In this document: positions 9,627 through 23,278 of the stretch, in pieces
How positions within the stretch are numbered: the first letter of the stretch is position 1
How the letters are laid out: the number at the start of each line of letters is the position of its first letter
NCBI GenBank assembly: GCA_963816995.1
Contig: CAWFMI010000004.1
Coordinates: 95,973-159,972, forward strand
Direction: 5' to 3'
Length of the DNA: 64,000 bases
From: an uncultured Actinomycetota bacterium
GTDB lineage: Bacteria > Actinomycetota > Actinomycetes > Mycobacteriales > Pseudonocardiaceae
Notes under the pieces: generated by a model
The model's input: the letters and a program-made list of their open reading frames with translations, nothing else
What the model was told of the DNA's origin: nothing
The model's database searches: none
Position numbers and translations under genes: made by a program

Positions 9627-11375
9627 TCACGTCGCGGGGACGTCGTCCACCGGGATCTCTGCCTCGCCGCCCTCTTCGGCACCGCCCTCGGTGCCGCCCT
9701 CCTCCTCGGTGCCGCCGGCCGGCGGGACGCCAGGGTCCACCGGCGGGACTTCCGCGACGGTGGTGGTCTCAGGGGGCGGGGAGGCTGTGGTGGTCGTCGT
9801 TGTCGTGGTGGTGGTGGTTGTCGGATCGTCCGGTGGGTCCTCGGCGGCCGGCTGCTCGGCGGGAACGCCGCCGCCCTGGTTCTGCGGCCGCTGCGGGCGG
9901 ACGCCGCCCTGGTTCTGGGCAGGCACCTGGTTGACGGGGGCCGGGGCGGCCTCCTCGGGAGCCGGGGCCTCCGTGAGCTGGGGGACCTCGACGACGGACG
10001 TCGTCGTGGTGCCGCCCGTGGGGGTCGGGGTCGTGCGGTCGGGGCCGTACAGCAGGGCGGCGCCGATCGCGGCCGCGACCAGCAGGCCGCCCGCGCCGAA
10101 CACCACGGCCGGCCGGCGTGAGACCGATGTCGGCGGCAGGGTGGGGGCGAGCTGAGGCACGGGCGGCCGCGGCGGGTCGGTGATCGGCGGCTGGAATCTC
10201 GCCTGGGCGGCCGGTACCGGTACGGGCTGTACGGGCTGGACGGGTGTCGGCCGGGGCTGGAAGGCCGGCGCGACCGGTGGGATCACCACCGCGGGCCACG
10301 ACTCCGCGCGCGGCGAGATCGACAGCGCGGCGCCGAGGGCGATCGCGTTCTTCGGGTCGGCGTCCACCGCCACCGGGCGGTCGAACGCGGCCGACACCAG
10401 TTGGGCGACCAGCGGGATCCGCGAGGACCCGCCCACGAGCAGCACGGCGCTCAGATCCGCTGGAGTCAGGCCGGCCGACGCCACGGCGCGGTGCAGCGCG
10501 TCGACGCTCTCCTCGAGCTGCGGGCGGATCATCGTCTCGAACTCGCCGCGGGTCAGGCGCACCGCGGTCTGCAGCCCCGGCAGCAGGACAGCGATCCGCA
10601 CCTCGGTGTCGGCCGACAGCGCCTCCTTCGCCTCCTTGCACTCGCGACGCAGCCGGGATACGGCGGACACCACGGTCTCGTCGGCGGGATCGAGCTGGTC
10701 GAACGCCGCCCCGACGGCCTCGCGGACGTGCATGAACACCAGGTCGTCGAAGTCGACGCCACCGAGCCGGTCGATGCCTTCCGGCTGGCCGAGCAACGCG
10801 AACGTGCCGTTCTTGCGGACGACCGCGGAGTCGAACGTGCCACCGCCCAGGTCGTAGACCGCGATCGTGGACCCGCGCTCGACGCGTTCCGCCGCCGCGT
10901 AGCTGAGGGCGGCTGCCTGCGGCTCGGCCAGGAACGTCACGTCGAGGCCGCGGGTGGCCAGCGCGCGATGCAGCAGATCCTTCTTGTGCGGTCCCCACGA
11001 TGCCGGGTGGGTCAGGGCGATCCGCCGGGCCCGGGAGCCCTCGCGCTCGGCCACCCGCTCGACGACCCAGGCCACCAGCATCGCGGCCAGCTCGTGGGCC
11101 GGGTACGGCCTCCCGCCGACGACCAGCGGGGTCTCGTCGCCCACCTGCCGCTTGAACTCGCGGACCACGCGGTCCGGATCGGTCGTCGCCCGCCGCTCGG
11201 CCGCCTCGCCCACCAGGACCGTGCCGTCGGGAGCGAGGTAGAGCACGGACGGCACCTGGACCGCGCGATCGCCGAGGGACACCATCTCCGGGTCGGCGGG
11301 CTGCTGCTCCGTTGCGCGCGACACCGACGCAGCCGTATACGTCGTCCCGAGATCGATCCCGAGTTGATAGCTCAT
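9627..11375 (-). CDS. Hsp70-family ATPase domain fused to a Pro-rich linker, one TM helix and a low-complexity tail (no Hsp70 substrate-binding domain)
   Basis: GIDLGTTYTAASV, VYDLGGGTFDSAVV and LLVGGSSRIPLV are the Hsp70/actin-fold phosphate and adenosine motifs. After about residue 365 come P-rich sequence, the hydrophobic segment PAVVFGAGGLLVAAAIGAALLY, then a T/P/E/G-rich tail including an 11-residue Thr run. Confidence 0.85.
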   Translation of the reverse strand: MSYQLGIDLGTTYTAASVSRATEQQPADPEMVSLGDRAVQVPSVLYLAPDGTVLVGEAAERRATTDPDRVVREFKRQVGDETPLVVGGRPYPAHELAAMLVAWVVERVAEREGSRARRIALTHPASWGPHKKDLLHRALATRGLDVTFLAEPQAAALSYAAAERVERGSTIAVYDLGGGTFDSAVVRKNGTFALLGQPEGIDRLGGVDFDDLVFMHVREAVGAAFDQLDPADETVVSAVSRLRRECKEAKEALSADTEVRIAVLLPGLQTAVRLTRGEFETMIRPQLEESVDALHRAVASAGLTPADLSAVLLVGGSSRIPLVAQLVSAAFDRPVAVDADPKNAIALGAALSISPRAESWPAVVIPPVAPAFQPRPTPVQPVQPVPVPAAQARFQPPITDPPRPPVPQLAPTLPPTSVSRRPAVVFGAGGLLVAAAIGAALLYGPDRTTPTPTGGTTTTSVVEVPQLTEAPAPEEAAPAPVNQVPAQNQGGVRPQRPQNQGGGVPAEQPAAEDPPDDPTTTTTTTTTTTTASPPPETTTVAEVPPVDPGVPPAGGTEEEGGTEGGAEEGGEAEIPVDDVPAT

Positions 11376-11649
11376 GCGGCCCCCCTACGCCCGGTGTCGA
11401 TCGGAGCCTCCATGGCCGCGTGCCTGCGGTCATCCCCCGGCCGGGAAGTCGCGGTCCGATCCCCTAAACCCCCCAAGGCGCGCGACCACCCGGGTCCGAT
11501 CCGGAGCCCCTCTCGACTCCGTCGCATCCCGGATTGCAGGCCGCGCCGGAGTTCGTAGGGTTGCTGGCAATGCGCCGGATGTGCGGCGCGAGTGGCCGGG
11601 GGTGAGCGTGTCAGCCGATCCGAGCGCCTCCATCTGGGAGGTCACGCGG

Positions 11650-12246
11650 ATGATCCTGGACAATCCCGGGGTCAGCCCGTCTGCGATCGCGCACGCGCAC
11701 GGGTTCAGCGCGGTCGAGGTGGCGGAGCTTCTCCCGATCTTCCTCGACAATCTCCGCACCGACTTCTCCTCGGCCGACGGGCCCGCCCCCGCGCTCGTCC
11801 CGCCGGCGCCGCAGCCCGGCGAGACGCCCGAGGAGCACGCCGACCGCTACCTGCGCGATCTTGCTCAGCACGAACACCTCGACGTCGTCGGCTACGACAC
11901 GCTCGGTGCCACCGTCGGTGACCTGGACGGCGCCGATCTGGATAGCGCCGACCCCGATGGCGACCTCGACGGCGATCTCGGTCAGGACCCGACCTTCCTC
12001 GACCCGGCGCTGCCGGAGGTCCCCGGCGAGCTCGTCGAGCTCGCCGACGCCGCGGCCGAACATCCGGATGCGGACCTGCACGAGGCCGGCCCGGTGCACG
12101 ACCTCGCGGAGGACGACCCGTTCGCCGCGTCAGCGCCCCCCGAGACCGGCTCCCCGGGCGCCGACGACTCCTTCGACGACGATGCCTCCCTCGACGGTGC
12201 AGCCGCCGGCGCGGACGACTCCGGCGAACCGTTCGCGATGAGCTAA
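11650..12246 (+). CDS. Hypothetical polyacidic protein
   Basis: ATG 11650 lies 9 nt after GGGAGG. The first ~35 aa are ordered-looking (GVSPSAIAHAHGFSAVEVAELLPIF). The rest is Asp/Glu/Pro/Ala-rich (DLDGADLDSADPDGDLDGDLGQD...). No family recognised. Confidence 0.5.
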   Translation: MILDNPGVSPSAIAHAHGFSAVEVAELLPIFLDNLRTDFSSADGPAPALVPPAPQPGETPEEHADRYLRDLAQHEHLDVVGYDTLGATVGDLDGADLDSADPDGDLDGDLGQDPTFLDPALPEVPGELVELADAAAEHPDADLHEAGPVHDLAEDDPFAASAPPETGSPGADDSFDDDASLDGAAAGADDSGEPFAMS

Positions 12247-12417
12247 CACCCCCGACCCGGCAACCGAGTTCTACACCGCGCGCACTGTGTATCAGCGCCC
12301 GTTCGGGCGTCTCCTGTACCCGGTCGGATCGCTACCCTGATCGGGCTCCCCGGGCTCGCAGCGACAGCGTCAGGTACGGCGATCGGCGACGACGTCGACA
12401 CGGGAGGGCATGCCGCG

Positions 12418-15039
12418 GTGCAGACAACGGGCCGGACCGTGATGACCGCGGTGAAGGTCGAGAGCGCTGCCTCCGACAGCGCGCTCGTCGGCGCGCCCGC
12501 TGCTCGAAGGCTGTACCGGGAGATCGCGTCAGCGCCCGCGCTGCCGCGCCGCACCGTGGTGGTGGGACCGGGCGGCTGTGGCAAAACCGTGCTGCTCGAC
12601 ATGCTGGGCGATCTCTACCGTGGCGCCGGGCTCGCGGTCCGGCGGGACGTTCCGGCGGACGCCGAGCCGGTGGACCCGAACGTCGTGCTGCTCGTCGACG
12701 ACGCTCACGAGCTCGACGAGGCAGCACTGGGGCGGCTGCGGCTGTGGGCCGCCGATCCCGGGGCACAGGTCGTGCTCGCCCACCGGCCGTGGCCGCGGAG
12801 CGGGAAGCTCGCCTCGATCGTCGTCGCGTTCGGTGCGAAGAGGGGGCCGCTCTCGCTGGGCCCGCTGGATCGTCCCGGCGTCGCCGCCCGCGCCAACCTG
12901 CTGCTGGGGGAGCGGCCCACGGCGGAGCTGGTGGACCTGGTGTTCGAGCAGACGGGGGGCTCTCCGGACCTGGTCGACCGCCTGCTGGTGGGGCTGCGCG
13001 ACGAGCGGGCGCTCGATCGGCTCGGTTCCGGTGGTGAGCCGCCGGCCGCCGTCGTCCGGCAGCTGGGATACGAGATCGACGCGCAGCCGACCCGGGTCCG
13101 AGAGCTGCTGCTGGGCCGCACCGTGGGCGCCCCCATCGATCCGGACGTCCTCGGCGCGCTGCTCGACGTGGCCCCGGGGGCGGTGGGGGAGCTGCTCGAC
13201 CAGGCGGCCGCCACCGGTCTGCTCGACCCCGACGGCGGCGTCGTGCCGCTGGTACGGCACGCGCTGCTGCGGGTGGTCCCCGCTGCCCACCGCCTGGTGC
13301 TGCAGCGGCAGCTGGCCGAGATCCAGCTCGATGCCGGCGGCAGCGTGCTCGTCGCGGCGCGGGGTCTGATCGGCAGTGGGGCGACCGGCACCCGGGTGGC
13401 CACCGCGTTCGAACGTGCGGGTGACGAGGCGCTCCGCGAATGCCTTCCGGCCGCGACGGATCTGTTCGACGCCGCGGTGGAGGCCGGTGCGGCACCGCTG
13501 CCGCTGGCCGCGCGGCGGGCGGAGGCGGCGATGCTCGTCGGCGATCTGGACGCGGCGCTGCGGCGGGCCGATCAGGTGCTCGCCGAGCCGGCTTCGGCGG
13601 GGAGCGATGCGGTGGAGCGGGCAGTGGCGGTGGCCGCGGCGGTGCTGGCCCACCGCGGGATGCTGAGCCGCAGCGCCGATCTGTACCGGTGGCTCGCCGC
13701 GCAGCCGTTCGGTGGTCCGGCCCTGCTCGCGGTGCCCGCGCTCGTCGGCATCGGTGCGCTCGACGAGGCGCGCGACGTCCTGGCCGCGGCGCCGGGCGGC
13801 GCCGGCCAGGCACCCACCCTGCTGGCAGGTGCGGAGGCACTGCTCGCCCGTGGGGTCCACGACACCGTCGCCGGCAACCCGACCGCCGCGCTCTCCCAGC
13901 TCACGCGCGCGGCCGTGTTGTTGGAGTCGTCCGGCCGGGCGGCGCTGCTCCCGGACACGCCCGCGGCGCTGGCCGCACTGGTCGCGATCCACTGCGGGGA
14001 GCTGGACGTGGCGCAGTCCGTGCTGGGCCAGGCCGTCGCCGCGGGCCTCGGCGGACCCGCCGTCGTGGCACGGCACCTCCTCCTGCAGGCGCTGCTCGCC
14101 ATGCACCGCGGATCGGGCGCGCAGGCGCGGGCGCTGCTGCAGTCGGCGTCCGGTCGGGGGCGGCTCGAGCCGCGGGACGAGCTGCTGGCCGCCGCGCTCG
14201 ACGTCGGGCTGGCTCGCAGGGCGGGCGATCTCGCCGGCCTGCTGACCGGGTGGCGCCGGGCTCGGGAGGCCATCGTCCGGCACCCGATAGACCTGTACTC
14301 GCTGCAGCCGCTCGGCGAGCTCGTGGTCGGGGCCACCCGGCTGAACGAGCAGGGCTGGGTGCAGCCGTACCTGGACGAGGCCGAGGCGCTGCTCGACCGG
14401 CTGGGGGACCCGCCGTTGTGGGCGGTGTCGCTGCACTGGTCCGGGCTCCAGGCCGCGATCGGGTCCGATGCGGGCGCCGCGGCCCAGCGGCACGCGGCCG
14501 TCCTGGACCGCATGGCTCCCACCAGCCGGTACGCCGCCGCCGTGGCCACCGCGGGCCGGGAATGGCTGCGGAGCCTCGGCGGTGAGGTGGACGCGGACGC
14601 GGTGGAGGCCGCGGCCCGCGGCCTGCACGCCGCCGGCCTCAGCTGGGAGGGTGGGCGCCTGGCCAGCCAGGCCGCGATCCGCTGCCGGGACCGCAAGAGC
14701 ATGAACGCCCTGCTCGGCTGTGCCCGCGCGCTGCAGGCCGGCGCCGAGCAGCCCAGCACGGCACCTGCGGATCCGACGCCCGGCCGCGGGCAGCCCGTGC
14801 GCCGGGTGAAGGTGCCCGAGCAGGCGTCGGAGAGCTCGGCCGGCGCGATCAGCGGTCGGGAGCGGGAGGTGGCAGAGCTCGTCCTGTCCGGTCTCACCTA
14901 CAAGCAGATCGGTGAGCAGCTGTTCATCTCCGCGAAGACCGTGGAGAACCACGTCGCCCGGATGCGTCAGCGGCTGGGTTCCGGCAGCCGGGGCGAGCTC
15001 TTCGCCCACCTCCGCATGCTGGTGGGCGAAGGGCACTAG
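12418..15039 (+). CDS. Large ATP-binding LuxR-family regulator (LAL/MalT-like STAND ATPase)
   Basis: 873 aa with Walker A VVVGPGGCGKTVLLD near the N-terminus, a long helical Ala/Leu-rich middle and a C-terminal LuxR HTH REREVAELVLSGLTYKQIGEQLFISAKTVENHVARMRQRLG. Confidence 0.9.
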   Translation: MQTTGRTVMTAVKVESAASDSALVGAPAARRLYREIASAPALPRRTVVVGPGGCGKTVLLDMLGDLYRGAGLAVRRDVPADAEPVDPNVVLLVDDAHELDEAALGRLRLWAADPGAQVVLAHRPWPRSGKLASIVVAFGAKRGPLSLGPLDRPGVAARANLLLGERPTAELVDLVFEQTGGSPDLVDRLLVGLRDERALDRLGSGGEPPAAVVRQLGYEIDAQPTRVRELLLGRTVGAPIDPDVLGALLDVAPGAVGELLDQAAATGLLDPDGGVVPLVRHALLRVVPAAHRLVLQRQLAEIQLDAGGSVLVAARGLIGSGATGTRVATAFERAGDEALRECLPAATDLFDAAVEAGAAPLPLAARRAEAAMLVGDLDAALRRADQVLAEPASAGSDAVERAVAVAAAVLAHRGMLSRSADLYRWLAAQPFGGPALLAVPALVGIGALDEARDVLAAAPGGAGQAPTLLAGAEALLARGVHDTVAGNPTAALSQLTRAAVLLESSGRAALLPDTPAALAALVAIHCGELDVAQSVLGQAVAAGLGGPAVVARHLLLQALLAMHRGSGAQARALLQSASGRGRLEPRDELLAAALDVGLARRAGDLAGLLTGWRRAREAIVRHPIDLYSLQPLGELVVGATRLNEQGWVQPYLDEAEALLDRLGDPPLWAVSLHWSGLQAAIGSDAGAAAQRHAAVLDRMAPTSRYAAAVATAGREWLRSLGGEVDADAVEAAARGLHAAGLSWEGGRLASQAAIRCRDRKSMNALLGCARALQAGAEQPSTAPADPTPGRGQPVRRVKVPEQASESSAGAISGREREVAELVLSGLTYKQIGEQLFISAKTVENHVARMRQRLGSGSRGELFAHLRMLVGEGH

Positions 15040-16526
15040 GCCTGACGGAGTCCCGCGAGTATCCCCTCGCAGCTGCGCACCACCACCCGGGACGCGTTGG
15101 CCATGGCCCGGCTGGACATCGGGCTCTCCGCCCGCCGCCGCCAGACCGTCAGCCGGTTCATCGCCGCTGCCCGTAGCTCGTCCAGGCCGGCGTCCGCCGG
15201 AAGGCCGAGCCGCTGGTGGGGAGCGCTCCCGTCGGCGCCGATCAGCCGCTCCGCCTCCGCGACCTGTTCCTTCGGTGGCCGCAGGACCCGCCCCCGGAGG
15301 TCGGAGAGCAGCCGCAGCTCCGCGAACTCGTGCGCACCGGCCAGGATCCGCTCGACCTCGGCGGCGAGCGGTGCCGAGGTCGGCCGCGGTTCGCGGCGCA
15401 GCACCAGGTCGAGGGCGATCAGTGCGGAGCGTGCCTTCAGCACGTCCCGGCGTTCGGTGAACTGGCTGGCCAGGACCTGGCGCAGCTCGACCAATCCGCT
15501 GCGCTGCACCAGCTCCGCCGCGAGCGCGGAGGCGTCACCGACCCCCTGCCGGATGAGAGTGGTCGACAGCCGGAGCCCGAACATGCCGAACCGCTCGAGG
15601 AGCGCGCCGCGGACGCCCGAGGACGGCTCAGTGACGCCGTCGGCTGCCGCGAAGCGGTCGACGGTGAGCAGGAGTGCGTCCAGCTCGTCGGGCGGGAGGG
15701 CGGCCAGGGTGGCCAGCGCCGCGTACTCGTCCTGACGCATCGTGCGGCCGGTGACGGCGAGCAGGCCGGCCACGGGCACGACGGTCTGGCAGAACGCGCG
15801 CAGCATCTCGTCGGACCGGTAGCGCGCGGCGATCACGCGGGCCGACCGCAGGGCGTCGACGCGCCCGACGCCGACCTCGTCGGCGCGCGACAGCACGGCG
15901 ACGGTGTTGACCGGGGCGGCCCGGGCCACGCCCTGGTCGTGGAACGACTCGAGGAACCGCATGTCGGCGGAATGCAGGTGGCGCATCAGGTACAGCACCG
16001 CGTCCGCGGCGGACGGTGCGTCGTCGGGTGCGAGGAAGCGTTCGCTGCGGGCCGAGACGTCGAGCGACAGGGAGGCGATGCCGGGGGTGTCGATGAGCGT
16101 CGTGGCCCGCAGGCTCGCCGACGGCCACGTGACCTCCAGCCGGTCCACGGTCTCGGCGGGCGCGCCCAGGTCGATCTGCAGCGCACCACCGTTGCGCTCG
16201 ATGCGCAGCGGGCGGGGCTGCCCGCCGGCGCGCGGGTACAGCCGCACGGCCGGGGAATGCCCGTCCTGATACCAGGTCACCACCTTCGTGCACTCGCCCG
16301 CATCCGTAGGCGCGATGGCCTCCCCGACCAGGGCGTTGAGCAAGGTCGACTTGCCGGCCTTGACCTTGCCCGCGATGGCGAGGCGCAGCGGCTCGTCGTA
16401 GCGGTCGAGGTGGTGGCGCAACCACCGCAGGGCGTTCGGGCTGTCCCGATAGGTGTCGACGGCCCGCAGCAGCACCACACGGACCGATTCGCGCAGCCCG
16501 GGCGAGCCGCCCGCCGGCGCCGTCAC
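15036..16526 (-). CDS. Dynamin-like GTPase, IniC-like
   Basis: G1 motif LAIAGKVKAGKSTLLNAL and G3 motif LIDTPGI. Its GTG start overlaps the stop of the upstream dynamin-like gene (GTGA). Confidence 0.8.
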   Translation of the reverse strand: MTAPAGGSPGLRESVRVVLLRAVDTYRDSPNALRWLRHHLDRYDEPLRLAIAGKVKAGKSTLLNALVGEAIAPTDAGECTKVVTWYQDGHSPAVRLYPRAGGQPRPLRIERNGGALQIDLGAPAETVDRLEVTWPSASLRATTLIDTPGIASLSLDVSARSERFLAPDDAPSAADAVLYLMRHLHSADMRFLESFHDQGVARAAPVNTVAVLSRADEVGVGRVDALRSARVIAARYRSDEMLRAFCQTVVPVAGLLAVTGRTMRQDEYAALATLAALPPDELDALLLTVDRFAAADGVTEPSSGVRGALLERFGMFGLRLSTTLIRQGVGDASALAAELVQRSGLVELRQVLASQFTERRDVLKARSALIALDLVLRREPRPTSAPLAAEVERILAGAHEFAELRLLSDLRGRVLRPPKEQVAEAERLIGADGSAPHQRLGLPADAGLDELRAAAMNRLTVWRRRAESPMSSRAMANASRVVVRSCEGILAGLRQA

Positions 16527-18331
16527 GACGGCTCCATCAGCGCGCGGGCCCGGGTGGCGAGCCCCGCGACGCGCTCCAGCTCCGCCTTGAGGTCCCCGAT
16601 CCGGGTACCGCGTTCGGCCTGTGTCGCCTTCACCGCGCTCTGCGCCGCCGCCACGGACCCCGCCATCGACGTCTGCATCTCCTCGGCGAGTGTGGTGAAG
16701 TGGTCCCGCAGCGTGCGGTGGGTGCGTCGGAGCAGGTCCCGGGAGTCCTTGCCCACCTGGAACTGCACCTCGTCGATGTGCTTGCGCACGAGCATCTTGG
16801 CCTCGGCCTGCCGGCGTGCCAGCTCCCGCTTCCGCTCATCCTTGATCTGCTTGCGTCCGAGGAGGAGCGCGCCACCGACCGCCGCGAACGGGGCGGCGAT
16901 GGCCAGCCCGGGGATGAGGCTGAGCGGCATGAAGAACATCAGTCCGCCCATGTACCCGCCGCGCAGCCCGCTGAGCGCCCGCTCACCGAGCCCCACGGGC
17001 GTCGTGTCGGGCCGCTCGATCCTGGCGACCCGGGGGGCCGGCCCGGTGACGGCCACGGGCAGCTCGGGGAGGGCGACCCGCCCGTCCTCGGCGAACAGCT
17101 CGGCCACCCGGCGGGCGAGCGCCTCGGCGCGCTCGCTCGCCCAGACGAAGTTGGCCGATGCCGCGCTGGTGACCTGGTGTTGCACCCACTTGGCGAGCTG
17201 GTCCCACACGTCCGCCGGATCGGCGTCCTCGGCGAGCGTCTCCGCCTCCCTCATGACGGTCCGGAGCCGGTCGCGCAGGTCGTGATCGATGTCGGCGGTG
17301 AGGTCGGCGACGGCGTCGTTGAGGGTGACCTGCCAGCGAGCCGTGCGCTCCTTGAGCCCGGTGGCCGACTTTCTCGCCTTCTCCAGCTCGGCCACCAGCT
17401 CCTTGGCCCGCTCCGGGTTCTCCTGCGCGGTGAGCTCGGCGCTCATCGTGGTCGTGATCTGCTCGCAGACGCTCAGGATGTCCCGGCCGGTGGAACGGCG
17501 GGCGAGCAGCTCGGCCTGGCCCAGCACCCGCTCACGCAGGTACGTGACCAGCACCGGGTAGCCGGATTCGTCGTTGAGCGCGTGGTTCTTCGTGCGCAGC
17601 GCGAGCTGGCGCACCGTCGACGAGACCGGGATCAGCTCGGTGTCGACCCCGGCGGTGGCGAGGTGCCCGCGGTCCAACTCGGCGATCCGCCGCCACGCCG
17701 GATAGAGGTCGATCTTGGTGAGCACCGCGGCGACGTTCGGGCACATCTGCATCGCGGTCGCCAGGAAGTCGAGCTCCGGCCTCGTGTACTCCTGTGCGGC
17801 GTCGGACACCAGCACCACCGCGTCGGCCCCCGCGATCGCGGCCATCGTCGCGGAGCCGTGCGCGGACCCCAACCCACCCACGCCCGGCGTGTCGACGAGC
17901 ACCAGCCCGCCGGCGAGCAACGAGCGCGGCAGACCCACCTCCGCGTAGGAGATCCGCTGCCGGTTGTCCGGGTTCCCGGACTCGGAGACGTGCTGGGCCA
18001 ACTGCCCGATGGGGATCTCGGTTCGTTTCGGCTCGGCCCCCTCGGCCCCTTCGGCCGGCTCCCGTACCAGGGCCGCCGTCGGCGCGGCGGCATGCCGCAC
18101 CATCGTCGGCACCGCGGTGGCGACGTCGTCGTCCACCGGGCAGACCGACGCCGACACGAGCGAGTTGACCAGCAGGCTCTTGCCCTGCTTGAACTCGCCG
18201 ACGACGAGCACCCGCACGTTCGAACCGGTCAGCCGTTCCCGCGAGCGGGCCAGCTTCGCCGTGAGATCCGGCCGCCCGTAGGCCTCCGTCGCCTTGCGGG
18301 CCACGTCGACCAGCTGGATCGCCTCGGACAC
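16523..18331 (-). CDS. Dynamin-like GTPase, IniA-like, with a hydrophobic membrane-insertion segment
   Basis: G1 VLVVGEFKQGKSLLVNSL, G3 LVDTPGVGG, G4 LTKIDL and hydrophobic GGLMFFMPLSLIPGLAIAAPFAAVGGALLLG. Start set to GTG 18331, which follows GGGGGAG; the 178-aa low-complexity extension of the listed ORF is rejected. Confidence 0.85.
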   Translation of the reverse strand: MSEAIQLVDVARKATEAYGRPDLTAKLARSRERLTGSNVRVLVVGEFKQGKSLLVNSLVSASVCPVDDDVATAVPTMVRHAAAPTAALVREPAEGAEGAEPKRTEIPIGQLAQHVSESGNPDNRQRISYAEVGLPRSLLAGGLVLVDTPGVGGLGSAHGSATMAAIAGADAVVLVSDAAQEYTRPELDFLATAMQMCPNVAAVLTKIDLYPAWRRIAELDRGHLATAGVDTELIPVSSTVRQLALRTKNHALNDESGYPVLVTYLRERVLGQAELLARRSTGRDILSVCEQITTTMSAELTAQENPERAKELVAELEKARKSATGLKERTARWQVTLNDAVADLTADIDHDLRDRLRTVMREAETLAEDADPADVWDQLAKWVQHQVTSAASANFVWASERAEALARRVAELFAEDGRVALPELPVAVTGPAPRVARIERPDTTPVGLGERALSGLRGGYMGGLMFFMPLSLIPGLAIAAPFAAVGGALLLGRKQIKDERKRELARRQAEAKMLVRKHIDEVQFQVGKDSRDLLRRTHRTLRDHFTTLAEEMQTSMAGSVAAAQSAVKATQAERGTRIGDLKAELERVAGLATRARALMEPS

Positions 18332-18416
18332 CGCCACAGCTCCCCCTTGTTCACGACGGACGGCCGACCCAGCGCCCCGGAGGATGCTGAGCCGGCCTGG
18401 TGGTCCGGGATCTGGA

Positions 18417-19409
18417 TCAGAAGTCGACCGTCTGGTCGCCGCTGTCGACGTCGATGTCGACGTCGGCGTCGCCACCGTCGGCGTCGCCGCCGGCGCCACC
18501 GTCCGCGCTGCCACCGGTCCCGGAGCCGCCAGAACCGCCGGAGCCGCCGTCGCCACCGTCGATGTCCGGGAAGCTGCTGCTGTCGGCGTCGACGCCGCCC
18601 CCGGCACCGCCGGCACCGCCGGCGCCACCGGTCCCGGCACCGCCCGTGCCGCCGTCGCCGCCGTCGGCGCTGGCGTCCCCGCCGGTCGTGTCTCCGACCT
18701 CGATGTCGGTGTCGTTGTCCTGCTGCTGGTTGACCTGCTTGTTGTTGTCACCGAGGGCGGCGTTGTTGGACTGCTGCCCACTGCCGAAGTTGTCGTTGCC
18801 GCTGCCGACGCTCGTGGCGTCGCCGAACACGCTGCCCGCGCTTCCGTCGGTGGCCGTGACGTCACCGGTGTTCGCCTGGTTCTCGTCGCCCTGCTGCAGC
18901 ACGCCGCCGTCGTCGACGTCGCCCGTGTTGACGTTCGTGTCGTCGAGCTCGCTGTCGCGGATCAGGACGCCGTCCTCACCGACGGTGTTCTCGCTGTTGT
19001 CGATGTCGAAGTCCTGATTGACGTCCCCACCCGCGGTGATCTGCTGGTTGATCGAGTTGTCCTCGATGTTGTTGATCGTGGTGAATTCCTGGTAGTTGTT
19101 GACCTCCTGCGTGAGGTACTGCACGTACTCCTCGGGGCTCGCGTCGTACGGCGGCGGCTCCGAAGGGGTGTATGCGGGGGCGGCCTGCGCGGCTGCCTGC
19201 GTGGCGCCCTGGGAGCCGGACTGCGCCGTGTCCAGGTTGTAGTTCCGGCTGAAGTCGGCCTGGGCGAAGTAGGTGTTCCAGCCCTCGGACAGCTCCTGGG
19301 GCGTGGTGTCGTGCTCCGCCGCGAAGTCCTGGACGTCCCCGTTCGGGTTGGCGAGCAGCCATGTGCGCAGTGCCTCGAGCAGTTCAGGGACGTTCGTGAT
19401 TGCGGTCAT
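18417..19409 (-). CDS. IniB-like, extremely acidic Asp/Asn/Gly-rich repeat protein
   Basis: ATG 19409 follows GAGGAGA. It is the first gene of the operon ahead of the two dynamin-like genes, as iniB is in mycobacterial iniBAC. The C-terminal half consists of GGxGG and D-x-D repeats. No signal peptide is seen. Confidence 0.6.
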   Translation of the reverse strand: MTAITNVPELLEALRTWLLANPNGDVQDFAAEHDTTPQELSEGWNTYFAQADFSRNYNLDTAQSGSQGATQAAAQAAPAYTPSEPPPYDASPEEYVQYLTQEVNNYQEFTTINNIEDNSINQQITAGGDVNQDFDIDNSENTVGEDGVLIRDSELDDTNVNTGDVDDGGVLQQGDENQANTGDVTATDGSAGSVFGDATSVGSGNDNFGSGQQSNNAALGDNNKQVNQQQDNDTDIEVGDTTGGDASADGGDGGTGGAGTGGAGGAGGAGGGVDADSSSFPDIDGGDGGSGGSGGSGTGGSADGGAGGDADGGDADVDIDVDSGDQTVDF

Positions 19410-19662
19410 TGAGATCGTCTCCTCGATCGTTTTCCGATTCGCGCTCCGGCGATGTGAGGAAAAGCTAGGAGCCAGCCACCGCCTGGTCATCGGGGATCGG
19501 GCGAGCGCACAACCGGCGAGCTTGTGGGGTCGACCGGTCGTTGGGGGATGAGGGATTGGGGGATCGGTCGCCCCCCGACATGGCGCGCTGCGGGTGTGAC
19601 CGACACGGGCCGGGCGCAGCGGGAGCACGGCCTCGTCACGAGCGCGCAGGCACGGAGTCCCC

Positions 19663-21324: not shown

Positions 21325-21597
21325 CTATTCGATCGGCCAGCGCTCGACGATCGAGCGCAGGGGGGTGGTGTCGAGGTGGTGGAACTTGTAGCGGCCCTCG
21401 CGGCGGGTGCTGACCAGGCCGGCGTCCTCGAGCACCGCCAGGTGCTGGGAGATGGCCTGCCGCGTGGAGCCGAGCCCGTGCTTCATCGCCAGCCGCCCAC
21501 AGATCTCGAACAGCGTCTGGCCGTTCTTGTCGGTGAGCTCGTCGAGGATCGCCCGCCGTGTCGGGTCGGCGAGCGCCTTGAAGAGTGGATCGGGCAC
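21325..21597 (-). CDS. ArsR/SmtB-family transcriptional regulator
   Basis: FKALADPTRRAILDEL...STRQAISQHLAVLEDAGLV. GTG start 21597 is chosen; it is first in a putative ArsR-VOC-MFS operon. Confidence 0.8.
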   Translation of the reverse strand: MPDPLFKALADPTRRAILDELTDKNGQTLFEICGRLAMKHGLGSTRQAISQHLAVLEDAGLVSTRREGRYKFHHLDTTPLRSIVERWPIE

Positions 21598-21610
21598 AAG
21601 GGATTTATAT

Positions 21611-21626
21611 GCAAGCAGCCACTTGC
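21611..21626. promoter_or_regulatory. Candidate ArsR operator in the divergent promoter region
   Basis: GCAAG-CAGCCA-CTTGC inverted repeat 14 nt upstream of the ArsR start, in an AT-richer stretch (GGATTTATATGCAAG...). Confidence 0.35.
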
Positions 21627-21710
21627 CTGTCAAGCTTCCGCCGTCGAGTGTCGATTCCGGCCGGTCCCGGTTGTCGTAGTGACGACCGACCGAACGAGGA
21701 GGGATCCGAT

Positions 21711-22055
21711 ATGCAGTACCTGCTGCTGATCTGCGGTGTCGAGGGCGACGAGGCGGCACCGGAGGACCGCGGGGGCTACACCATCGAGGAGTGGGTCGAG
21801 GAGATGGACCGTCGTGGCGTGCGGCTGCGGGGCGACCGGCTGCGGCCCGCGTCCGACTCCACGACCGTGCGCGTCCGCGGCGCCGAGGTGCTGATCTCGG
21901 ACGGCCCGTTCGCCGAGACCAAGGAGCAGATGTACGGCTTCGACCTGCTGGAGTGCGCCGACCTCGACGAGGCCATCGAGGTGGCGTCCAAGCACCCGAA
22001 CGCCCGGCACGGGGTGATGGAGATCCGGCCGGTCTGGCCGCTCGACCAGGAATGA
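21711..22055 (+). CDS. YciI-family (DGPF-motif) protein
   Basis: [19 protein letters not shown] motif. ATG 21711 follows GAGGAGGG. Its stop overlaps the sigma-factor ATG (ATGA). Confidence 0.8.
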
Positions 22056-23278
22056 CGGCCGCCGAGGAGGCGGTCACCGCTGCGTTCCGGGACGAGTGGG
22101 GGCGGGTCGTCGCCACCCTGATCCGGATGACCGGTGACTGGGACCTCGCGGAGGAGTGCGCGCAGGACGCCGTCGCGCAGGCGCTGGCCCGCTGGCCGCG
22201 CGACGGTGTCCCGCGCAACCCCGGCGCGTGGCTCACGACGACCGCCCGCAACGCGGCGCTCAACCGGCTCAAGCGCAGCAAGATCGAGGCGGCGAAGCTG
22301 AGGGAGGTGGCGGCGATGCCTGACGGATCCGAGGACGAGGGCGACGGGAGCGTCCTGCAGGACGACCGGCTGCGGCTGATCTTCACCTGCTGCCACCCCG
22401 CGCTCCCGTTGGAGGGCCGGGTCGCGCTGACGTTGCGCACGCTCACCGGCCTGACCACGCCGGAGATCGCGCGCGCGTTCCTCGTGCCGGAGTCGACGAT
22501 GGCCCAGCGGCTGGTGCGGGCGAAGCGCAAGATCCGGGCGGCCGGGATCCCGTACCGGGTGCCACCCGACCACCTCCTGCCCGACCGGCTGGTCGGCGTC
22601 CTCGGCGTCGTGTACCTGCTGTTCAACGAGGGCTACTCGGCCGCCGTCGGACCCGATCTCGTGCGGCTCGATCTCTGCGCCGAGGCGATCCGCCTCGCCC
22701 GCACCCTCGCTGCGCTCATGCCCGACGACCCCGAGGTGCTCGGCCTCACCGCCCTGCTGCTCCTGCAGCACTCCCGGCGGGCGGCCCGGCTCGACGCCGA
22801 CGGCGAACCGGTCACGCTCGAGGACCAGGACCGCAGCAAGTGGAGTCGCGACGAGATCGCGGAGGGGCTCGCGCTCCTCGACGCGGCCCTGCGCCGGAGG
22901 GAACCGGGCACGTACCAGGTGCAGGCCGCCATCGCCGCCTGCCACGCCCGGGCCGCCCGCGCGTCGGACACCGACTGGCCGCAGATCGCCGCGCTCTACG
23001 GCACCCTCGCCAAGCTCACGCCCTCGCCGGTGGTGCGGCTCAACCGTGCCGTCGCCGTCGCGATGGCCGCCGGACCGGCCGCCGGCCTCGCGCTCGTCGA
23101 CGAGTTGGGCGACGAGCTGGCCGGCTACCGGATGGTTCCCGCCACCCGAGCCGACCTGCTCCGCCGCCTGGGCCGCCCCGGCGAGGCGGCCGAGGCGTAC
23201 CGCGAGGCCTTGACGCTGACGGAGTCGGACGCCGAACGCCGCTTCCTCACCCGCCGCCTGGAGGAGGTAGAGGGCTGA
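22052..23278 (+). CDS. ECF-type sigma-70 family factor with a long C-terminal extension
   Basis: Region 2 [21 protein letters not shown] and region 4 [30 protein letters not shown], followed by a helical C-terminal extension of about 230 aa. Pairing with YciI is common. Confidence 0.85.

What the first reader, a model, noticed from the sequence alone, without database searches (positions are those of the whole stretch)
9627..19662. Candidate envelope-stress or defence locus: Hsp70-ATPase-TM, polyacidic protein, STAND/LuxR regulator and an iniBAC-like operon
Six adjacent genes form a compact block. The truncated membrane Hsp70 gene is divergent from a polyacidic protein gene. That gene is followed on the same strand by an 873-aa P-loop STAND regulator with a LuxR HTH. 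The regulator converges, with a 4-bp overlap, on an operon of an IniB-like acidic repeat protein and two dynamin-like GTPases (IniA-like with a membrane paddle, and IniC-like). In mycobacteria iniBAC responds to cell-envelope stress, and I recall that a STAND ATPase regulator (IniR) is encoded next to it. Bacterial dynamin-like proteins are implicated in membrane repair, and I recall a link to phage resistance in Bacillus. The physical link to a membrane-tethered Hsp70 ATPase domain and a polyacidic partner is not part of the known ini locus. It may mark an extended sensing and repair system.
Basis: inference. Interest (0 to 1): 0.7.

Follow-up and report, generated by a model that had tools for sequence, protein, structure and literature searches.

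The report
Ini envelope-stress locus with Hsp70-like partner
This is a Pseudonocardia version of the mycobacterial IniR/iniBAC envelope-stress locus, and comparison with 80 other genomes shows that a truncated Hsp70-like ATPase, barely noted before, is a conserved partner of the regulator IniR.

Summary
The six-gene block is real. It is an actinobacterial ini locus. It holds an IniR-type STAND/LuxR regulator, a full-length IniA orthologue (E 2e-119 to M. smegmatis IniA, 6J72), an IniC-like second dynamin and a divergent IniB.

The Hsp70-like gene is not a chance neighbour. An Hsp70 nucleotide-binding-domain-only gene lies within 10 kb of iniR in 65 of 80 species-level loci, from five actinobacterial orders and in three gene orders. 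In 32 of 43 loci where it precedes iniR, its stop codon overlaps the iniR start by 4 nt. One strain carries two paralogous ini loci, each with its own copy.

By annotation and synteny only, this gene is the family of MSMEG_0692/Rv0312, the "dnaK-like gene" mentioned once beside M. smegmatis iniR.

The polyacidic protein is restricted to one Pseudonocardia subclade. It is probably a divergent IniB paralogue, comparable to mycobacterial iniB*.

Conserved GGGGAT boxes mark the iniB promoter and the hsp70/acidic-gene intergenic region.

I propose that the Hsp70-like protein controls or partners IniR; this is inferred, not shown. Nothing specifically supports a phage-defence role. The core system is known. 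The conserved Hsp70-like/IniR coupling is the new part.

The parts
9627..11375 (-). Hsp70-like ATPase of the Rv0312/MSMEG_0692 type. It has a DnaK-type nucleotide-binding domain (aa 1-351) with intact catalytic motifs and no substrate-binding domain. A Pro-rich linker carries a PPRPP motif (aa 401). One TM helix lies at about aa 423-446, followed by an extracytoplasmic Pro/Thr/Glu-rich tail.
   Evidence: Pfam HSP70 E 6.8e-51, NBD part only. The NCBIfam DnaK models match only residues 2-351. Best PDB matches are DnaK NBDs. Catalytic motifs compared. TM helix and motif located. Conserved linkage to iniR.
11376..11607 (.). Divergent regulatory region between the hsp70-like gene and the acidic gene. 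It holds GGGGAT/ATCCCC boxes (GTCATCCCCC 11429-11438; GATCCCCTAAACCCCCC 11458-11474; CATCCCGGAT 11525-11534) and a TACGAAC-type element (GTTCGTAGGGT 11551-11561).
   Evidence: Phylogenetic footprint across the window, P. hierapolitana and Pseudonocardia sp. DSM 110487. The same box family occurs in 36 other ini loci. WTHGGGGAT matches only here and upstream of iniB in the 64 kb. Hexamer enrichment P about 2e-6.
11608..12246 (+). Polyacidic protein (212 aa from GTG 11608; 198 aa from ATG 11650). It has a conserved four-helix N-terminal domain of about 85 aa, a variable Asp-rich disordered middle, and conserved short motifs (DPTFLD, EDDPFA, GEPFAMS). It is probably a divergent IniB paralogue (iniB*-like).
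   Evidence: Homologues only in a Pseudonocardia subclade, always with the ini genes. Alignment A2. hhalign versus IniB: E 1.7e-4 over 76 columns; score 30.8 against a maximum of 19.7 in 60 block-shuffled controls. AlphaFold N-domain pLDDT 80-92, remainder disordered.
12418..15039 (+). IniR-type signal-transduction ATPase and transcription activator. It has an N-terminal P-loop (GPGGCGKT, aa 50), a long helical sensor region and a C-terminal LuxR/GerE HTH.
   Evidence: NF038181 IniR: E 7e-134, 448 bits, aa 27-869 against model positions 3-825 of 827, below the equivalog cut-off of 750. GerE E 5.5e-14. The family has 449 clusters at E<=1e-30.
15036..16526 (-). IniC-like dynamin-like GTPase (496 aa, P-loop GKVKAGKS at aa 53), with no membrane paddle.
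   Evidence: Dynamin_N E 1.2e-10. It lies immediately downstream of iniA with a 4-bp overlap. It is conserved next to iniA in nearly all loci.
16523..18337 (-). IniA orthologue (about 604 aa): a dynamin-like GTPase with a hydrophobic membrane-inserting segment around aa 460-495.
   Evidence: phmmer versus PDB: M. smegmatis IniA 6J72, E 2.2e-119, 403 bits, residues 7-587 against 5-582 of 606. Dynamin_N E 7.8e-20. Start set from codon-position GC.
18417..19409 (-). Divergent IniB-like protein (330 aa; Asp/Gly/Asn/Thr-rich, net charge -58). The central region is homologous to Pseudonocardia IniB proteins. The canonical IniB N-terminal domain is not detectable.
   Evidence: An HMM of 15 Pseudonocardia-type IniB proteins hits only this ORF among 707 window ORFs (E 8.7e-9). 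The N-terminal-domain HMM gives no hit. It sits directly upstream of iniA, as in other loci. Orthologues are 77% or more identical in window-type loci.
19410..19662 (.). iniB promoter region with the architecture conserved across genera. On the + strand it reads GCTAGG (19464-19469, a -10-like TAGCTT on the iniB strand), then a proximal box CATCGGGGATC (19488-19498), then distal tandem boxes GGGGGATGAGGGATTGGGGGATC (19543-19565).
   Evidence: Colinear alignment with 36 iniB/hsp70 divergent intergenic regions. Conserved in L082 and L083. Coordinates.

Best explanation
The block is an actinobacterial ini module, in a divergent second-copy form found in one Pseudonocardia subclade.

Shown by homology:
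- IniR is a MalT-like STAND ATPase with a LuxR HTH.
- IniA and IniC are a paired set of dynamin-like GTPases.
- IniB, and the acidic protein next to iniR, are acidic low-complexity proteins of the IniB family.

Shown by comparative genomics:
- A gene for an Hsp70 nucleotide-binding domain without a substrate-binding domain is a conserved member of the module. By annotation and synteny it belongs to the family of M. smegmatis MSMEG_0692 / M. tuberculosis Rv0312.
- In most genera this gene is co-transcribed and translationally coupled with iniR, and the pair is divergent from iniBAC.

Inferred mechanism:
- IniR binds the conserved GGGGAT boxes. A proximal box sits about 19 nt upstream of the -10-like hexamer of the iniB promoter, with tandem boxes further upstream. 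The same boxes occur in the hsp70/acidic-gene intergenic region.
- On envelope stress IniR activates iniBAC, and probably also the hsp70-like and acidic genes.
- IniA and IniC then remodel or repair the cytoplasmic membrane.
- The Hsp70-like protein is anchored in the membrane here by one TM helix, with a Pro/Thr-rich stalk reaching into the wall. It is proposed to be IniR's partner. It would hold or modulate the regulator at the membrane and couple its activation to the state of the envelope. This is analogous to the negative control of MalT by MalK.

The partnership is strongly supported. Its direction (sensor or anti-activator versus co-effector) is not established.
For: Identity of the core:
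- IniR model NF038181 matches end to end.
- IniA versus 6J72: E 2e-119.
- Dynamin_N in both GTPases.
- IniB central homology, E 8.7e-9.
- The mycobacterial locus iniR-iniB*-iniBAC is described in PMC5760070.

Hsp70 linkage:
- Present in 65/80 loci anchored on IniR; my tally from the flank lengths listed gives 45 of the 51 loci with full 10-kb flanks.
- These come from Pseudonocardiales, Micromonosporales, Mycobacteriales (Rhodococcus rhodnii), Glycomycetales and Micrococcales (Georgenia).
- Three distinct gene orders keep the link.
- There is a 4-nt stop/start overlap of hsp70 and iniR in 32/43 loci.
- All linked genes are NBD-only, 398-730 aa, with a conserved PPxRPP motif.
- Pseudonocardia sp. 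CNS-004 has a window-type locus (L086) and a canonical locus (L019), each with its own hsp70-like gene.
- Five of seven sampled Pseudonocardia Hsp70-like proteins are ini-linked.

Literature:
- A dnaK-like gene lies next to M. smegmatis iniR.
- MSMEG_0691 is the IniR orthologue.
- MSMEG_0692 is the Rv0312 orthologue: single TM helix, ATP-binding, found in the FhaA interactome.
- Rv0312 carries an Hsp70 domain and is listed in the MtrA regulon.

Cis elements:
- ATCGGGG occurs in 36/36 and TTAGGGG in 35/36 divergent intergenic regions, 20-60-fold enriched.
- The architecture is colinear and includes the window.
- Five of the 28 GGGGAT hexamers in the window fall in the 485 bp of the two regulatory regions, P 2e-6.
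Against: - No experiment or interaction prediction links the Hsp70-like protein to IniR. Coupled translation shows co-production, not a complex.
- In this window the two genes are divergent, not coupled.
- In M. tuberculosis the orthologue (Rv0312) lies 27 genes from iniR, so tight linkage is dispensable.
- A few Pseudonocardia loci with full flanks (L002, L004, L011, L012) lack the gene. So do the Streptosporangiaceae MAG loci (L032, L057), whose downstream flanks are only 3.8-5.2 kb.
- The TM helix is absent in many genera.
- The DnaK catalytic residues are degenerate in the Micromonospora/Saccharothrix/Rhodococcus group. A uniform ATP-driven sensing mechanism across the family is therefore doubtful.
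- The IniR score is below NCBI's equivalog cut-off (448 versus 750 bits).
- Homology of MSMEG_0692/Rv0312 to the window protein rests on annotation and synteny, not on a sequence comparison made here.
- IniR binding to the GGGGAT boxes is inferred.
Confidence: 0.6

Rival explanations
1. The Hsp70-like protein is a co-effector rather than a regulator. It would be co-induced from the shared divergent promoter. It would act as a membrane-bound ATPase or scaffold that helps assemble, disassemble or recruit the IniA/IniC dynamins or the IniB-type acidic proteins at damaged membrane. This would be conceptually like Hsc70 acting after dynamin in clathrin uncoating, or like an FtsA/MreB-type membrane-tethered actin-fold scaffold.
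For: - In the commonest layouts the gene is divergent from iniB and shares one box-bearing intergenic region.
- In 16 Pseudonocardia-type loci it is next to iniB rather than iniR.
- The fold also matches MreB/FtsA profiles weakly.
- MSMEG_0692 was recovered with the envelope-biogenesis protein FhaA.
Against: - The 4-nt stop/start overlap with iniR in 32/43 loci points to stoichiometric co-production with the regulator, not with the effectors.
- The catalytic motifs are degenerate in many members, which argues against a conserved ATP-driven chaperone cycle.
- No substrate-binding domain is present.
Confidence: 0.25
2. The locus is a developmental cell-division module like Streptomyces DynA/DynB, which stabilise FtsZ rings during sporulation septation. 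It would not be a stress response.
For: - Pseudonocardia is a filamentous actinomycete.
- Paired dynamin-like proteins in Streptomyces act in division (papers listed).
- The M. smegmatis Hsp70-like orthologue appears in the interactome of FhaA, a polar-growth and division factor.
Against: - The larger GTPase is a full-length IniA orthologue.
- The locus carries the dedicated IniR regulator and IniB. These define the stress-induced mycobacterial system.
- No division genes are in the neighbourhood.
- Orthology to DynA/DynB was not tested here.
Confidence: 0.08
3. The block is an anti-phage defence system: a STAND NTPase sensor with dynamin-like effectors that seal or sacrifice infected cells.
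For: - There are weak PADLOC hits of the two GTPases to LeoA/LeoBC (best E 7.6e-15).
- B. subtilis DynA contributes to phage defence (PMC12998192, listed).
- STAND ATPases are common in defence systems.
- NBD-only Hsp70 genes occur in some GTPase-centred conflict systems (PMC7159879).
Against: - The STAND protein ends in a DNA-binding HTH and matches the transcription factor IniR over its whole length.
- The locus is a syntenic chromosomal core feature across five orders, not a variable island.
- The neighbours are housekeeping genes with no mobile-element or defence-island context.
- The conflict systems involve different GTPases, and that paper does not mention dynamin.
Confidence: 0.05
4. 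The Hsp70-like and acidic genes are unrelated neighbours of an ini locus, with no functional link.
For: - In M. tuberculosis the Hsp70-like orthologue is unlinked.
- Some loci lack it.
- The acidic gene is restricted to one subclade.
Against: - Linkage is kept through three rearranged layouts in five orders.
- hsp70 and iniR are translationally coupled.
- The whole module is co-duplicated in one genome.
- The two regulatory regions share cis elements.
- The acidic protein resembles IniB itself.
Confidence: 0.02

Closest known systems
Mycobacterial iniR - iniB* - iniBAC locus (Rv0339c-Rv0343; Boot et al. 2017, PMC5760070; IniA structure 6J72/6J73)
   Same: - A STAND/LuxR regulator matches the IniR model end to end.
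- IniA is orthologous over its full length.
- A second dynamin, IniC, lies downstream.
- An acidic or low-complexity IniB lies upstream.
- A small IniB-related gene lies beside iniR.
- In M. smegmatis a dnaK-like gene lies beside iniR.
   Different: [quoted passage not shown]
- IniB here lacks the canonical N-terminal domain and is Asp/Asn/Gly-rich.
- The IniR score is below the equivalog cut-off.
- The organism has no mycolic-acid envelope (my own knowledge), so the trehalose signal proposed for mycobacteria may not apply.
- The locus is a second paralogous copy in at least one genome.
[quoted passage not shown]
   Same: The architecture is as annotated: an Hsp70-type ATP-binding domain, one TM helix and a Pro/Thr-rich region. 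In M. smegmatis it is adjacent to the iniR orthologue MSMEG_0691.
   Different: - In M. tuberculosis the gene is not adjacent to iniR.
- The function of the family is unknown.
- The only functional data found are recovery in the FhaA interactome and a listing in the MtrA regulon.
E. coli MalT regulon (STAND activator held in check by MalK, MalY and Aes)
   Same: - IniR is MalT-like (P-loop, helical sensor, LuxR HTH; Phyre2 similarity to MalT domain III is reported in PMC5760070).
- The candidate boxes are short, G-rich, directly repeated and promoter-proximal.
- The window's distal box contains GGGGATGAGG, which equals the MalT-box consensus as I recall it (my own knowledge).
- The proposed control by a membrane-associated ATPase parallels the control of MalT by MalK.
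   Different: - The partner here has an Hsp70/actin fold, not an ABC ATPase.
- The regulated genes are dynamins, not a sugar-uptake system.
- Binding and inhibition are untested.
Bacterial dynamin-like pairs: Streptomyces DynA/DynB, B. subtilis DynA, Campylobacter DLP1/2, E. coli LeoABC
   Same: There are two adjacent dynamin-like GTPase genes in one operon, one with a membrane-inserting segment. The roles proposed for such pairs are membrane repair, fission or tethering.
   Different: - Those systems have no reported dedicated STAND regulator, IniB-type protein or Hsp70-like partner.
- The PADLOC Leo matches are weak.
GTPase-centred conflict systems with HSP70 components (Kaur et al. 2020, PMC7159879)
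   Same: A GTPase is genetically associated with an Hsp70-family protein. [quoted passage not shown]
   Different: - Those systems use different GTPases (GAP1-N2 and DO-GTPase types) together with GrpE, DnaJ, tubulin or effector domains.
- That paper does not mention dynamin or IniA.
- None of those components is present in this locus.

Membership tests
IniR (NCBIfam NF038181, isoniazid response ATPase/transcriptional regulator) | Full-length match to the family model at the curated equivalog score | tested here: not met
   448 bits, E 7.3e-134, aa 27-869 against model positions 3-825 of 827. The curated cut-off is 750 bits. It is a full-length homologue but not an equivalog by NCBI's threshold.
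IniR (NCBIfam NF038181, isoniazid response ATPase/transcriptional regulator) | N-terminal P-loop NTPase plus C-terminal LuxR-type HTH | tested here: met
   Walker A GPGGCGKT at aa 50. AAA_22 is weak. GerE E 5.5e-14 at aa 812-862.
IniR (NCBIfam NF038181, isoniazid response ATPase/transcriptional regulator) | Encoded next to iniBAC | tested here: met
   It is adjacent to iniC, iniA and iniB in the window and in most of the 80 loci.
IniR (NCBIfam NF038181, isoniazid response ATPase/transcriptional regulator) | Activates iniBAC in response to envelope stress | not testable with these tools
   This needs reporter or RNA-seq experiments. Only conserved candidate binding boxes were found.
IniA (mycobacterial dynamin-like protein) | Full-length homology to M. 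smegmatis IniA, including the G domain and the membrane-inserting segment | tested here: met
   6J72: E 2.2e-119, 403 bits, residues 7-587 against 5-582 of 606. The hydrophobic segment aligns. Dynamin_N E 7.8e-20.
IniC | A second, shorter dynamin-like GTPase directly downstream of iniA | tested here: met
   496 aa, Dynamin_N E 1.2e-10. It overlaps iniA by 4 bp. It is conserved beside iniA in the loci. A direct comparison with M. tuberculosis IniC was not possible.
IniB (Pfam PF27122) | Conserved IniB N-terminal domain (about 55 aa, of the form TLHDFVLNLLxDPxA...DPxGAL..AGL..I...DVQD..PLV) | tested here: not met
   An HMM built from 59 IniB N-termini in the loci gives no hit to the window IniB-like ORF. 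PF27122 is not in the local Pfam copy. Precomputed PF27122 hits exist for canonical Pseudonocardia IniB proteins.
IniB (Pfam PF27122) | Homology of the remainder of the protein, and a position directly upstream of iniA | tested here: met
   A Pseudonocardia-type IniB HMM hits only this ORF in the window, E 8.7e-9, covering model positions 62-235. The position is shown.
Canonical Hsp70 chaperone (DnaK/HscA) | Nucleotide-binding domain with catalytic motifs | tested here: met
   GIDLGTT, the K in REFKRQ, EPQAAA, DLGGGTFD and GGSSRIP are all present. The NBD matches DnaK.
Canonical Hsp70 chaperone (DnaK/HscA) | Substrate-binding domain and lid; score at the equivalog level | tested here: not met
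   Matches stop at about residue 351 of the protein (profile position 370 of 599). The score is 156 bits against cut-offs of 648-822. The C-terminal half is a Pro-rich linker, a TM helix and a Pro/Thr-rich tail.
Rv0312 / MSMEG_0692 family | Hsp70-type ATP-binding domain, single TM helix and Pro/Thr-rich region | tested here: met
   Window protein architecture compared with the annotations quoted.
Rv0312 / MSMEG_0692 family | Direct sequence homology to Rv0312 or MSMEG_0692 | not tested
The link rests on annotation and on adjacency to the iniR orthologue MSMEG_0691.
Known anti-phage defence systems (PADLOC) | Significant match of the components to a defence-system model set | tested here: inconclusive
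   Only dynamin-domain matches to LeoA/LeoBC were found (E 1e-9 to 8e-15). The hsp70-like hit (E 0.006) and the IniR HTH hit (E 3e-5) are negligible, and the acidic and IniB proteins give none.

The most novel reading that the evidence does not exclude
The Hsp70-fold protein of the Rv0312/MSMEG_0692 family is the missing input device of the ini response. It would be a partner of the STAND regulator IniR, usually tethered to the membrane or wall. It would keep IniR inactive, or localise it, until the envelope is damaged. Together these would form an ancient three-tier module across Actinomycetota: an Hsp70-like sensor or anti-activator, a STAND regulator, and IniB with a dynamin pair. In M. tuberculosis, Rv0312 would then be a hidden determinant of the isoniazid/ethambutol-induced iniBAC response.
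Probability: 0.35. Interest if true: 0.75.

Novelty: new variant of a known kind. Interest (0 to 1): 0.55.

Why it matters
iniBAC is the classic reporter of cell-wall damage in mycobacteria. It contributes to isoniazid and ethambutol tolerance and to vesicle release. How its regulator IniR senses damage remains unsettled; trehalose and ATP have been proposed.

A conserved, translationally coupled Hsp70-like partner gives a concrete candidate for that input, and one that can be deleted. It also assigns a context to the uncharacterised M. tuberculosis protein Rv0312. One computational study lists Rv0312 among essential hypothetical proteins (PMC6528289).

The conserved GGGGAT box architecture gives a testable IniR operator. 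It also shows that the ini module is an ancient actinobacterial system, not a mycobacterial speciality.

Tried and rejected
- Pfam and NCBIfam scans of the acidic and IniB-like proteins gave nothing, even at E<=10.
- Direct BLASTP of the acidic protein against the IniB-like protein was not significant (E 0.29).
- An HMM of the IniB N-terminal domain against all 707 window ORFs gave no significant hit. The acidic ORF ranked second at E 1.1, and the IniB-like ORF was absent. The 'IniB paralogue' reading of the acidic protein therefore rests on profile-profile comparison and shuffled controls only.
- tblastn with the acidic and IniB proteins found no hits in the 80 genome loci because of their low complexity and divergence.
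- The AlphaFold model of the acidic protein, searched with Foldseek against the PDB, gave no match better than E 1.7.
- The PADLOC defence models gave only weak dynamin-domain hits, so the defence reading was rejected as the primary explanation.
- The conflict systems of Kaur et al. 2020 that include Hsp70 use different GTPases and partners.
- In Pseudonocardia loci without a detected Hsp70-like gene, I checked whether the large upstream genes were divergent Hsp70 genes. They are an acyl-CoA dehydrogenase and an amidase.
- The sigma-70 promoter and intrinsic terminator scan gave nothing useful.
- The Rfam scan of the whole window gave no hits.
- Context look-ups for the two P. adelaidensis IniR paralogues failed because they are not on record. 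Co-existence of two loci was shown instead with Pseudonocardia sp. CNS-004.
- The 2025 DynAB preprint contains nothing on IniA/IniC orthology.

Full report
**1. What is in the sequence**

The window is high-GC DNA, about 72%. It comes from a Pseudonocardia: the regulator is 87% identical to that of P. hierapolitana.

Codon-position GC and ORF listing give six genes between 9627 and 19409:
- hsp70-like, 9627-11375(-), 582 aa
- acidic gene, 11608 or 11650 to 12246(+)
- regulator, 12418-15039(+), 873 aa
- dynamin 2, 15036-16526(-), 496 aa
- dynamin 1, 16523-18337(-), about 604 aa
- IniB-like, 18417-19409(-), 330 aa

The ORF that runs up to 18865 is an artefact of high GC. The third-position GC signal of the IniA frame begins only near 18337.

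The flanking genes are unrelated: luciferase-like monooxygenase, DinB/MDMPI protein, MFS transporter, glyoxalase, ArsR, and an ECF sigma factor.

**2. The core is an ini locus**

- The regulator matches NCBIfam NF038181 (IniR) from end to end: 448 bits, E 7e-134. This is below the equivalog cut-off of 750 bits. It has a Walker A motif and a GerE/LuxR HTH.
- The larger dynamin matches the crystallised M. smegmatis IniA (6J72) over residues 7-587, against 5-582 of 606, at E 2e-119. The match includes the hydrophobic membrane-inserting segment.
- The second dynamin has a Dynamin_N domain and the size and position of IniC.
- Boot et al. (PMC5760070) describe the mycobacterial arrangement as iniR, a small iniB-like gene called iniB*, then iniBAC. 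They show IniR to be the dedicated activator.

**3. IniB**

In almost every related locus, the gene directly upstream of iniA encodes a low-complexity protein with a well-conserved N-terminal domain of about 55 residues. For canonical Pseudonocardia proteins this carries precomputed Pfam PF27122 (IniB) hits.

- An HMM of that N-terminal domain does not find the window's protein.
- An HMM of 15 full-length Pseudonocardia IniB proteins finds it as the only hit among 707 window ORFs (E 8.7e-9). The match covers the FxRxYN, YL..V.N and DNS(I/V)NQQI..GGD motifs.

The window protein is therefore a divergent IniB with a remodelled N-terminus. The same form occurs in P. hierapolitana and in Pseudonocardia sp. 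DSM 110487.

**4. The Hsp70-like gene is a conserved member of the module**

I built a 36-sequence IniR alignment (A1) from a search of 50%-identity representatives. I used it to fetch 80 species-level genomic loci with 10-kb flanks.

tblastn with the window proteins finds an Hsp70 NBD gene within 10 kb of iniR in 65 of the 80 loci. My tally from the flank lengths listed gives 45 of the 51 loci that have full flanks on both sides. Most of the loci without a hit are cut by contig ends, or have the ini operon displaced toward the edge of the fetched stretch.

The gene orders differ, but the link persists:
- 38 loci have iniC-iniA-iniB(-) divergent from hsp70(+)-iniR(+). These include Micromonospora, Plantactinospora, Planosporangium, Rhodococcus rhodnii, Glycomyces, Saccharothrix, Lentzea, Umezawaea, Kibdelosporangium, Prauserella, Haloechinothrix, Gandjariella, Solihabitans and Streptoalloteichus.
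- 16 loci, mainly Pseudonocardia, have iniR(+) converging on iniC-iniA-iniB(-), which is divergent from hsp70(+).
- 5 loci, plus the window and its close relatives, have hsp70(-) divergent from iniR(+).
- Georgenia has a fourth order.

All linked genes encode NBD-only proteins of 398-730 aa.

In 43 loci hsp70 lies directly upstream of iniR on the same strand. In 32 of these the hsp70 stop codon overlaps an in-frame iniR start codon by 4 nt (ATGA, GTGA or TTGA). This is the usual signature of translational coupling.

Pseudonocardia sp. CNS-004 has both locus types on different contigs:
- a window-type locus (L086), with the same flanking genes as the window and IniA 87%, IniR 82% and Hsp70-like 74% identical
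- a canonical Pseudonocardia locus (L019)

Each has its own Hsp70-like gene.

In the reverse direction, I looked up seven Pseudonocardia Hsp70-like proteins. Five are ini-linked. Two belong to a separate conserved paralogue next to IclR/leuCD/gltX.

**5. What the Hsp70-like protein looks like**

- In the window it keeps the DnaK catalytic motifs (GIDLGTT, the Lys of REFKRQ, EPQAAA, DLGGGTFD, GGSSRIP). It has no substrate-binding domain.
- After the NBD come a Pro-rich linker with a PPRPP motif, basic residues, one TM helix (about aa 423-446), and a tail of about 135 residues that includes a run of eleven Thr and a Glu/Gly-rich end. Given the absence of a signal peptide, this tail is presumably extracytoplasmic.
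- Across 67 family members, the NBD fold, a P.RP core and, in many genera, a PPPRPPV.ITPL.LP motif are conserved.
- The TM helix is absent in Micromonospora, Saccharothrix, Lentzea and others.
- The group containing Micromonospora, Saccharothrix and Rhodococcus rhodnii has lost the equivalents of DnaK Lys70 and Glu171 and the second phosphate-binding motif.

The conserved properties are therefore the fold, the Pro-rich motif and the partnership with iniR. ATP hydrolysis and membrane insertion are not conserved.

**6. Link to the literature**

- MSMEG_0691 is the IniR orthologue.
- MSMEG_0690 appears in papers on EtfD.
- MSMEG_0692 is listed as the orthologue of Rv0312: a Pro/Thr-rich protein with one TM helix and ATP binding, recovered in the FhaA interactome.
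- Rv0312 is annotated as having an Hsp70 family domain and as part of the MtrA regulon.
- I found no study of its function; seven papers mention it in passing.
- I could not align a mycobacterial sequence. This identification therefore rests on annotation and synteny.

**7. The acidic protein**

It is a real gene.
- Relatives show about 85 N-terminal residues that are almost invariant, an Asp-rich middle of variable length, and conserved short motifs at the C-terminal end.
- Homologues number only 76 clusters. All named ones are from Pseudonocardia, and they sit on the same contigs as window-type IniR and Hsp70-like genes.
- Profile-profile comparison with IniB gives a colinear match of 76 columns (E 1.7e-4, probability 50%). 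It spans the second half of the IniB N-domain and the PPP..PGE..HEA..RYL motif.
- Run locally, the score is 30.8. The maximum in 60 block-shuffled controls is 19.7, and the reversed alignment gives 13.4.
- A model shows a small four-helix domain followed by disorder. It has no structural neighbour in the PDB.

I read it as a divergent IniB paralogue, comparable to mycobacterial iniB* beside iniR. It is not a new kind of component.

**8. Cis elements**

The 36 divergent iniB/hsp70 intergenic regions shorter than 600 bp share ATCGGGG (36/36) and TTAGGGG (35/36). These are 20-60 times more frequent than in random 320-bp windows of the same loci.

The layout is fixed. Reading from the iniB start toward hsp70, it is:
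- ACGCTAGG, which is a TAGCGT -10-like hexamer on the iniB strand
- about 19 nt
- CATCGGGGAT
- 33 or about 57 nt
- TTAGGGGATTAGGGGA
- TGGTACGAAC
- the hsp70 start

The window's iniB upstream region aligns colinearly:
- GCTAGG at 19464-19469
- CATCGGGGATC at 19488-19498
- GGGGGATGAGGGATTGGGGGATC at 19543-19565

The hsp70/acidic-gene intergenic region carries related boxes and a TACGAAC-type element. These are conserved in three species while the surrounding bases vary.

In the whole 64 kb, WTHGGGGAT occurs twice, once in each of these two regions. Five of the 28 GGGGAT hexamers fall in their 485 bp (binomial P 2e-6).

The proximal box lies where a class II activator would sit. The distal box contains GGGGATGAGG, the MalT-box consensus as I recall it. 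That IniR binds these boxes is an inference.

**9. Mechanism and rivals**

Established by homology and by published work on the family: IniR activates iniBAC on envelope stress, and IniA is a membrane-fission dynamin.

Established here: the Hsp70-like gene belongs to the module and is co-produced with IniR in most lineages.

My preferred reading, about 0.35 for the specific claim, is that the Hsp70-like protein is IniR's partner and input device. It would tether or restrain the regulator at the membrane and connect it to the state of the wall. This is analogous to MalK restraining MalT.

The main rival is a co-effector role with the dynamins or IniB. A division role like Streptomyces DynAB, and an anti-phage role, are minor alternatives. 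The defence reading has only weak LeoA/LeoBC domain hits and no island context.

**10. Verdict**

- It is wrong that this link is entirely outside the known locus.
- It is wrong about the status of the acidic protein.
- The core system is known.
- The conserved, translationally coupled Hsp70-like/IniR pair, the box architecture and the paralogous second locus are new observations of moderate interest.

Noticed in passing
window 13470-13564 (+): ARAGORN calls a 95-nt tRNA-Gly(gcc) inside the IniR coding sequence. This is almost certainly a false positive in GC-rich coding DNA.
   Followed up: no
L019 (MKJV01000088.1) and L086 (MKJV01000079.1), Pseudonocardia sp. CNS-004: One genome carries two paralogous ini loci. 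One is the canonical Pseudonocardia type. The other is the window type, with a divergent IniB and the extra acidic gene. Each has its own Hsp70-like gene. Two IniR homologues (85% and 59% identical to the window's) are also named for P. adelaidensis.
   Followed up: partly
L084 3206-5089 (P. nigra) and L089 10001-11908 (P. acidicola): There is a second conserved Hsp70-NBD plus TM paralogue that is not ini-linked. It always lies between an IclR regulator with leuCD on one side and gltX on the other. Its function is unknown.
   Followed up: partly
L032 7092-9638 (-) and L057 6743-9232 (-), Streptosporangiaceae MAGs: These loci have iniB-iniA-iniC and iniR but no Hsp70-like gene in the DNA available. 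A gene of about 840 aa lies divergent from iniR instead. Its product looks like an EAL-domain (c-di-GMP phosphodiesterase-like) protein by eye; no domain scan was run. This is of interest because c-di-GMP/HpoR control of iniBAC has been reported in mycobacteria (PMC13413693).
   Followed up: no
Hsp70-like family alignment from L001-L086: The family splits in two. Pseudonocardia-type and Georgenia proteins keep the DnaK catalytic motifs. Micromonospora, Saccharothrix, Lentzea, Kibdelosporangium and Rhodococcus rhodnii proteins have lost the Lys70 and Glu171 equivalents and the DLGGGTFD motif, so they are probably non-hydrolysing.
   Followed up: partly
C-terminal tails of Hsp70-like proteins, e.g. 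L041, L062, L073, L076, L077, L080: A short linear motif, PPPRPPV(D/E)ITPL(D/E)LP, followed by basic residues is conserved in many genera, whether or not a TM helix follows. The window has PPRPPVPQLAPTLPP at aa 401. Its binding partner is unknown.
   Followed up: no
iniB/hsp70 intergenic regions of about 20 loci, e.g. L038, L041, L052, L065, L080: A further conserved element, (C)TGGTACGAAC, lies between the tandem GGGGAT boxes and the hsp70 start. In the window a related GTTCGTAGGGT lies 50 nt upstream of the acidic gene, at 11551-11561. Its role (promoter or a second regulator site) is unknown.
   Followed up: no
L085 1324-3414 and 7000-9719 (P. nigra): A UvrD-like helicase gene is inserted between iniR and iniC, and three IniB-like genes lie in a row upstream of iniA. 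Several other loci also have two IniB paralogues (L016, L018, L020, L064, L067, L088).
   Followed up: no
window 21791-23278 (+) and 21325-21699 (-): An ECF-type sigma factor with DUF6596 and TPR repeats, and an ArsR-family regulator next to a glyoxalase, lie just beyond the locus. The same genes flank the locus in P. hierapolitana, Pseudonocardia sp. DSM 110487 and strain CNS-004. This is conserved synteny of the surroundings only; no link to the ini genes was tested.
   Followed up: no
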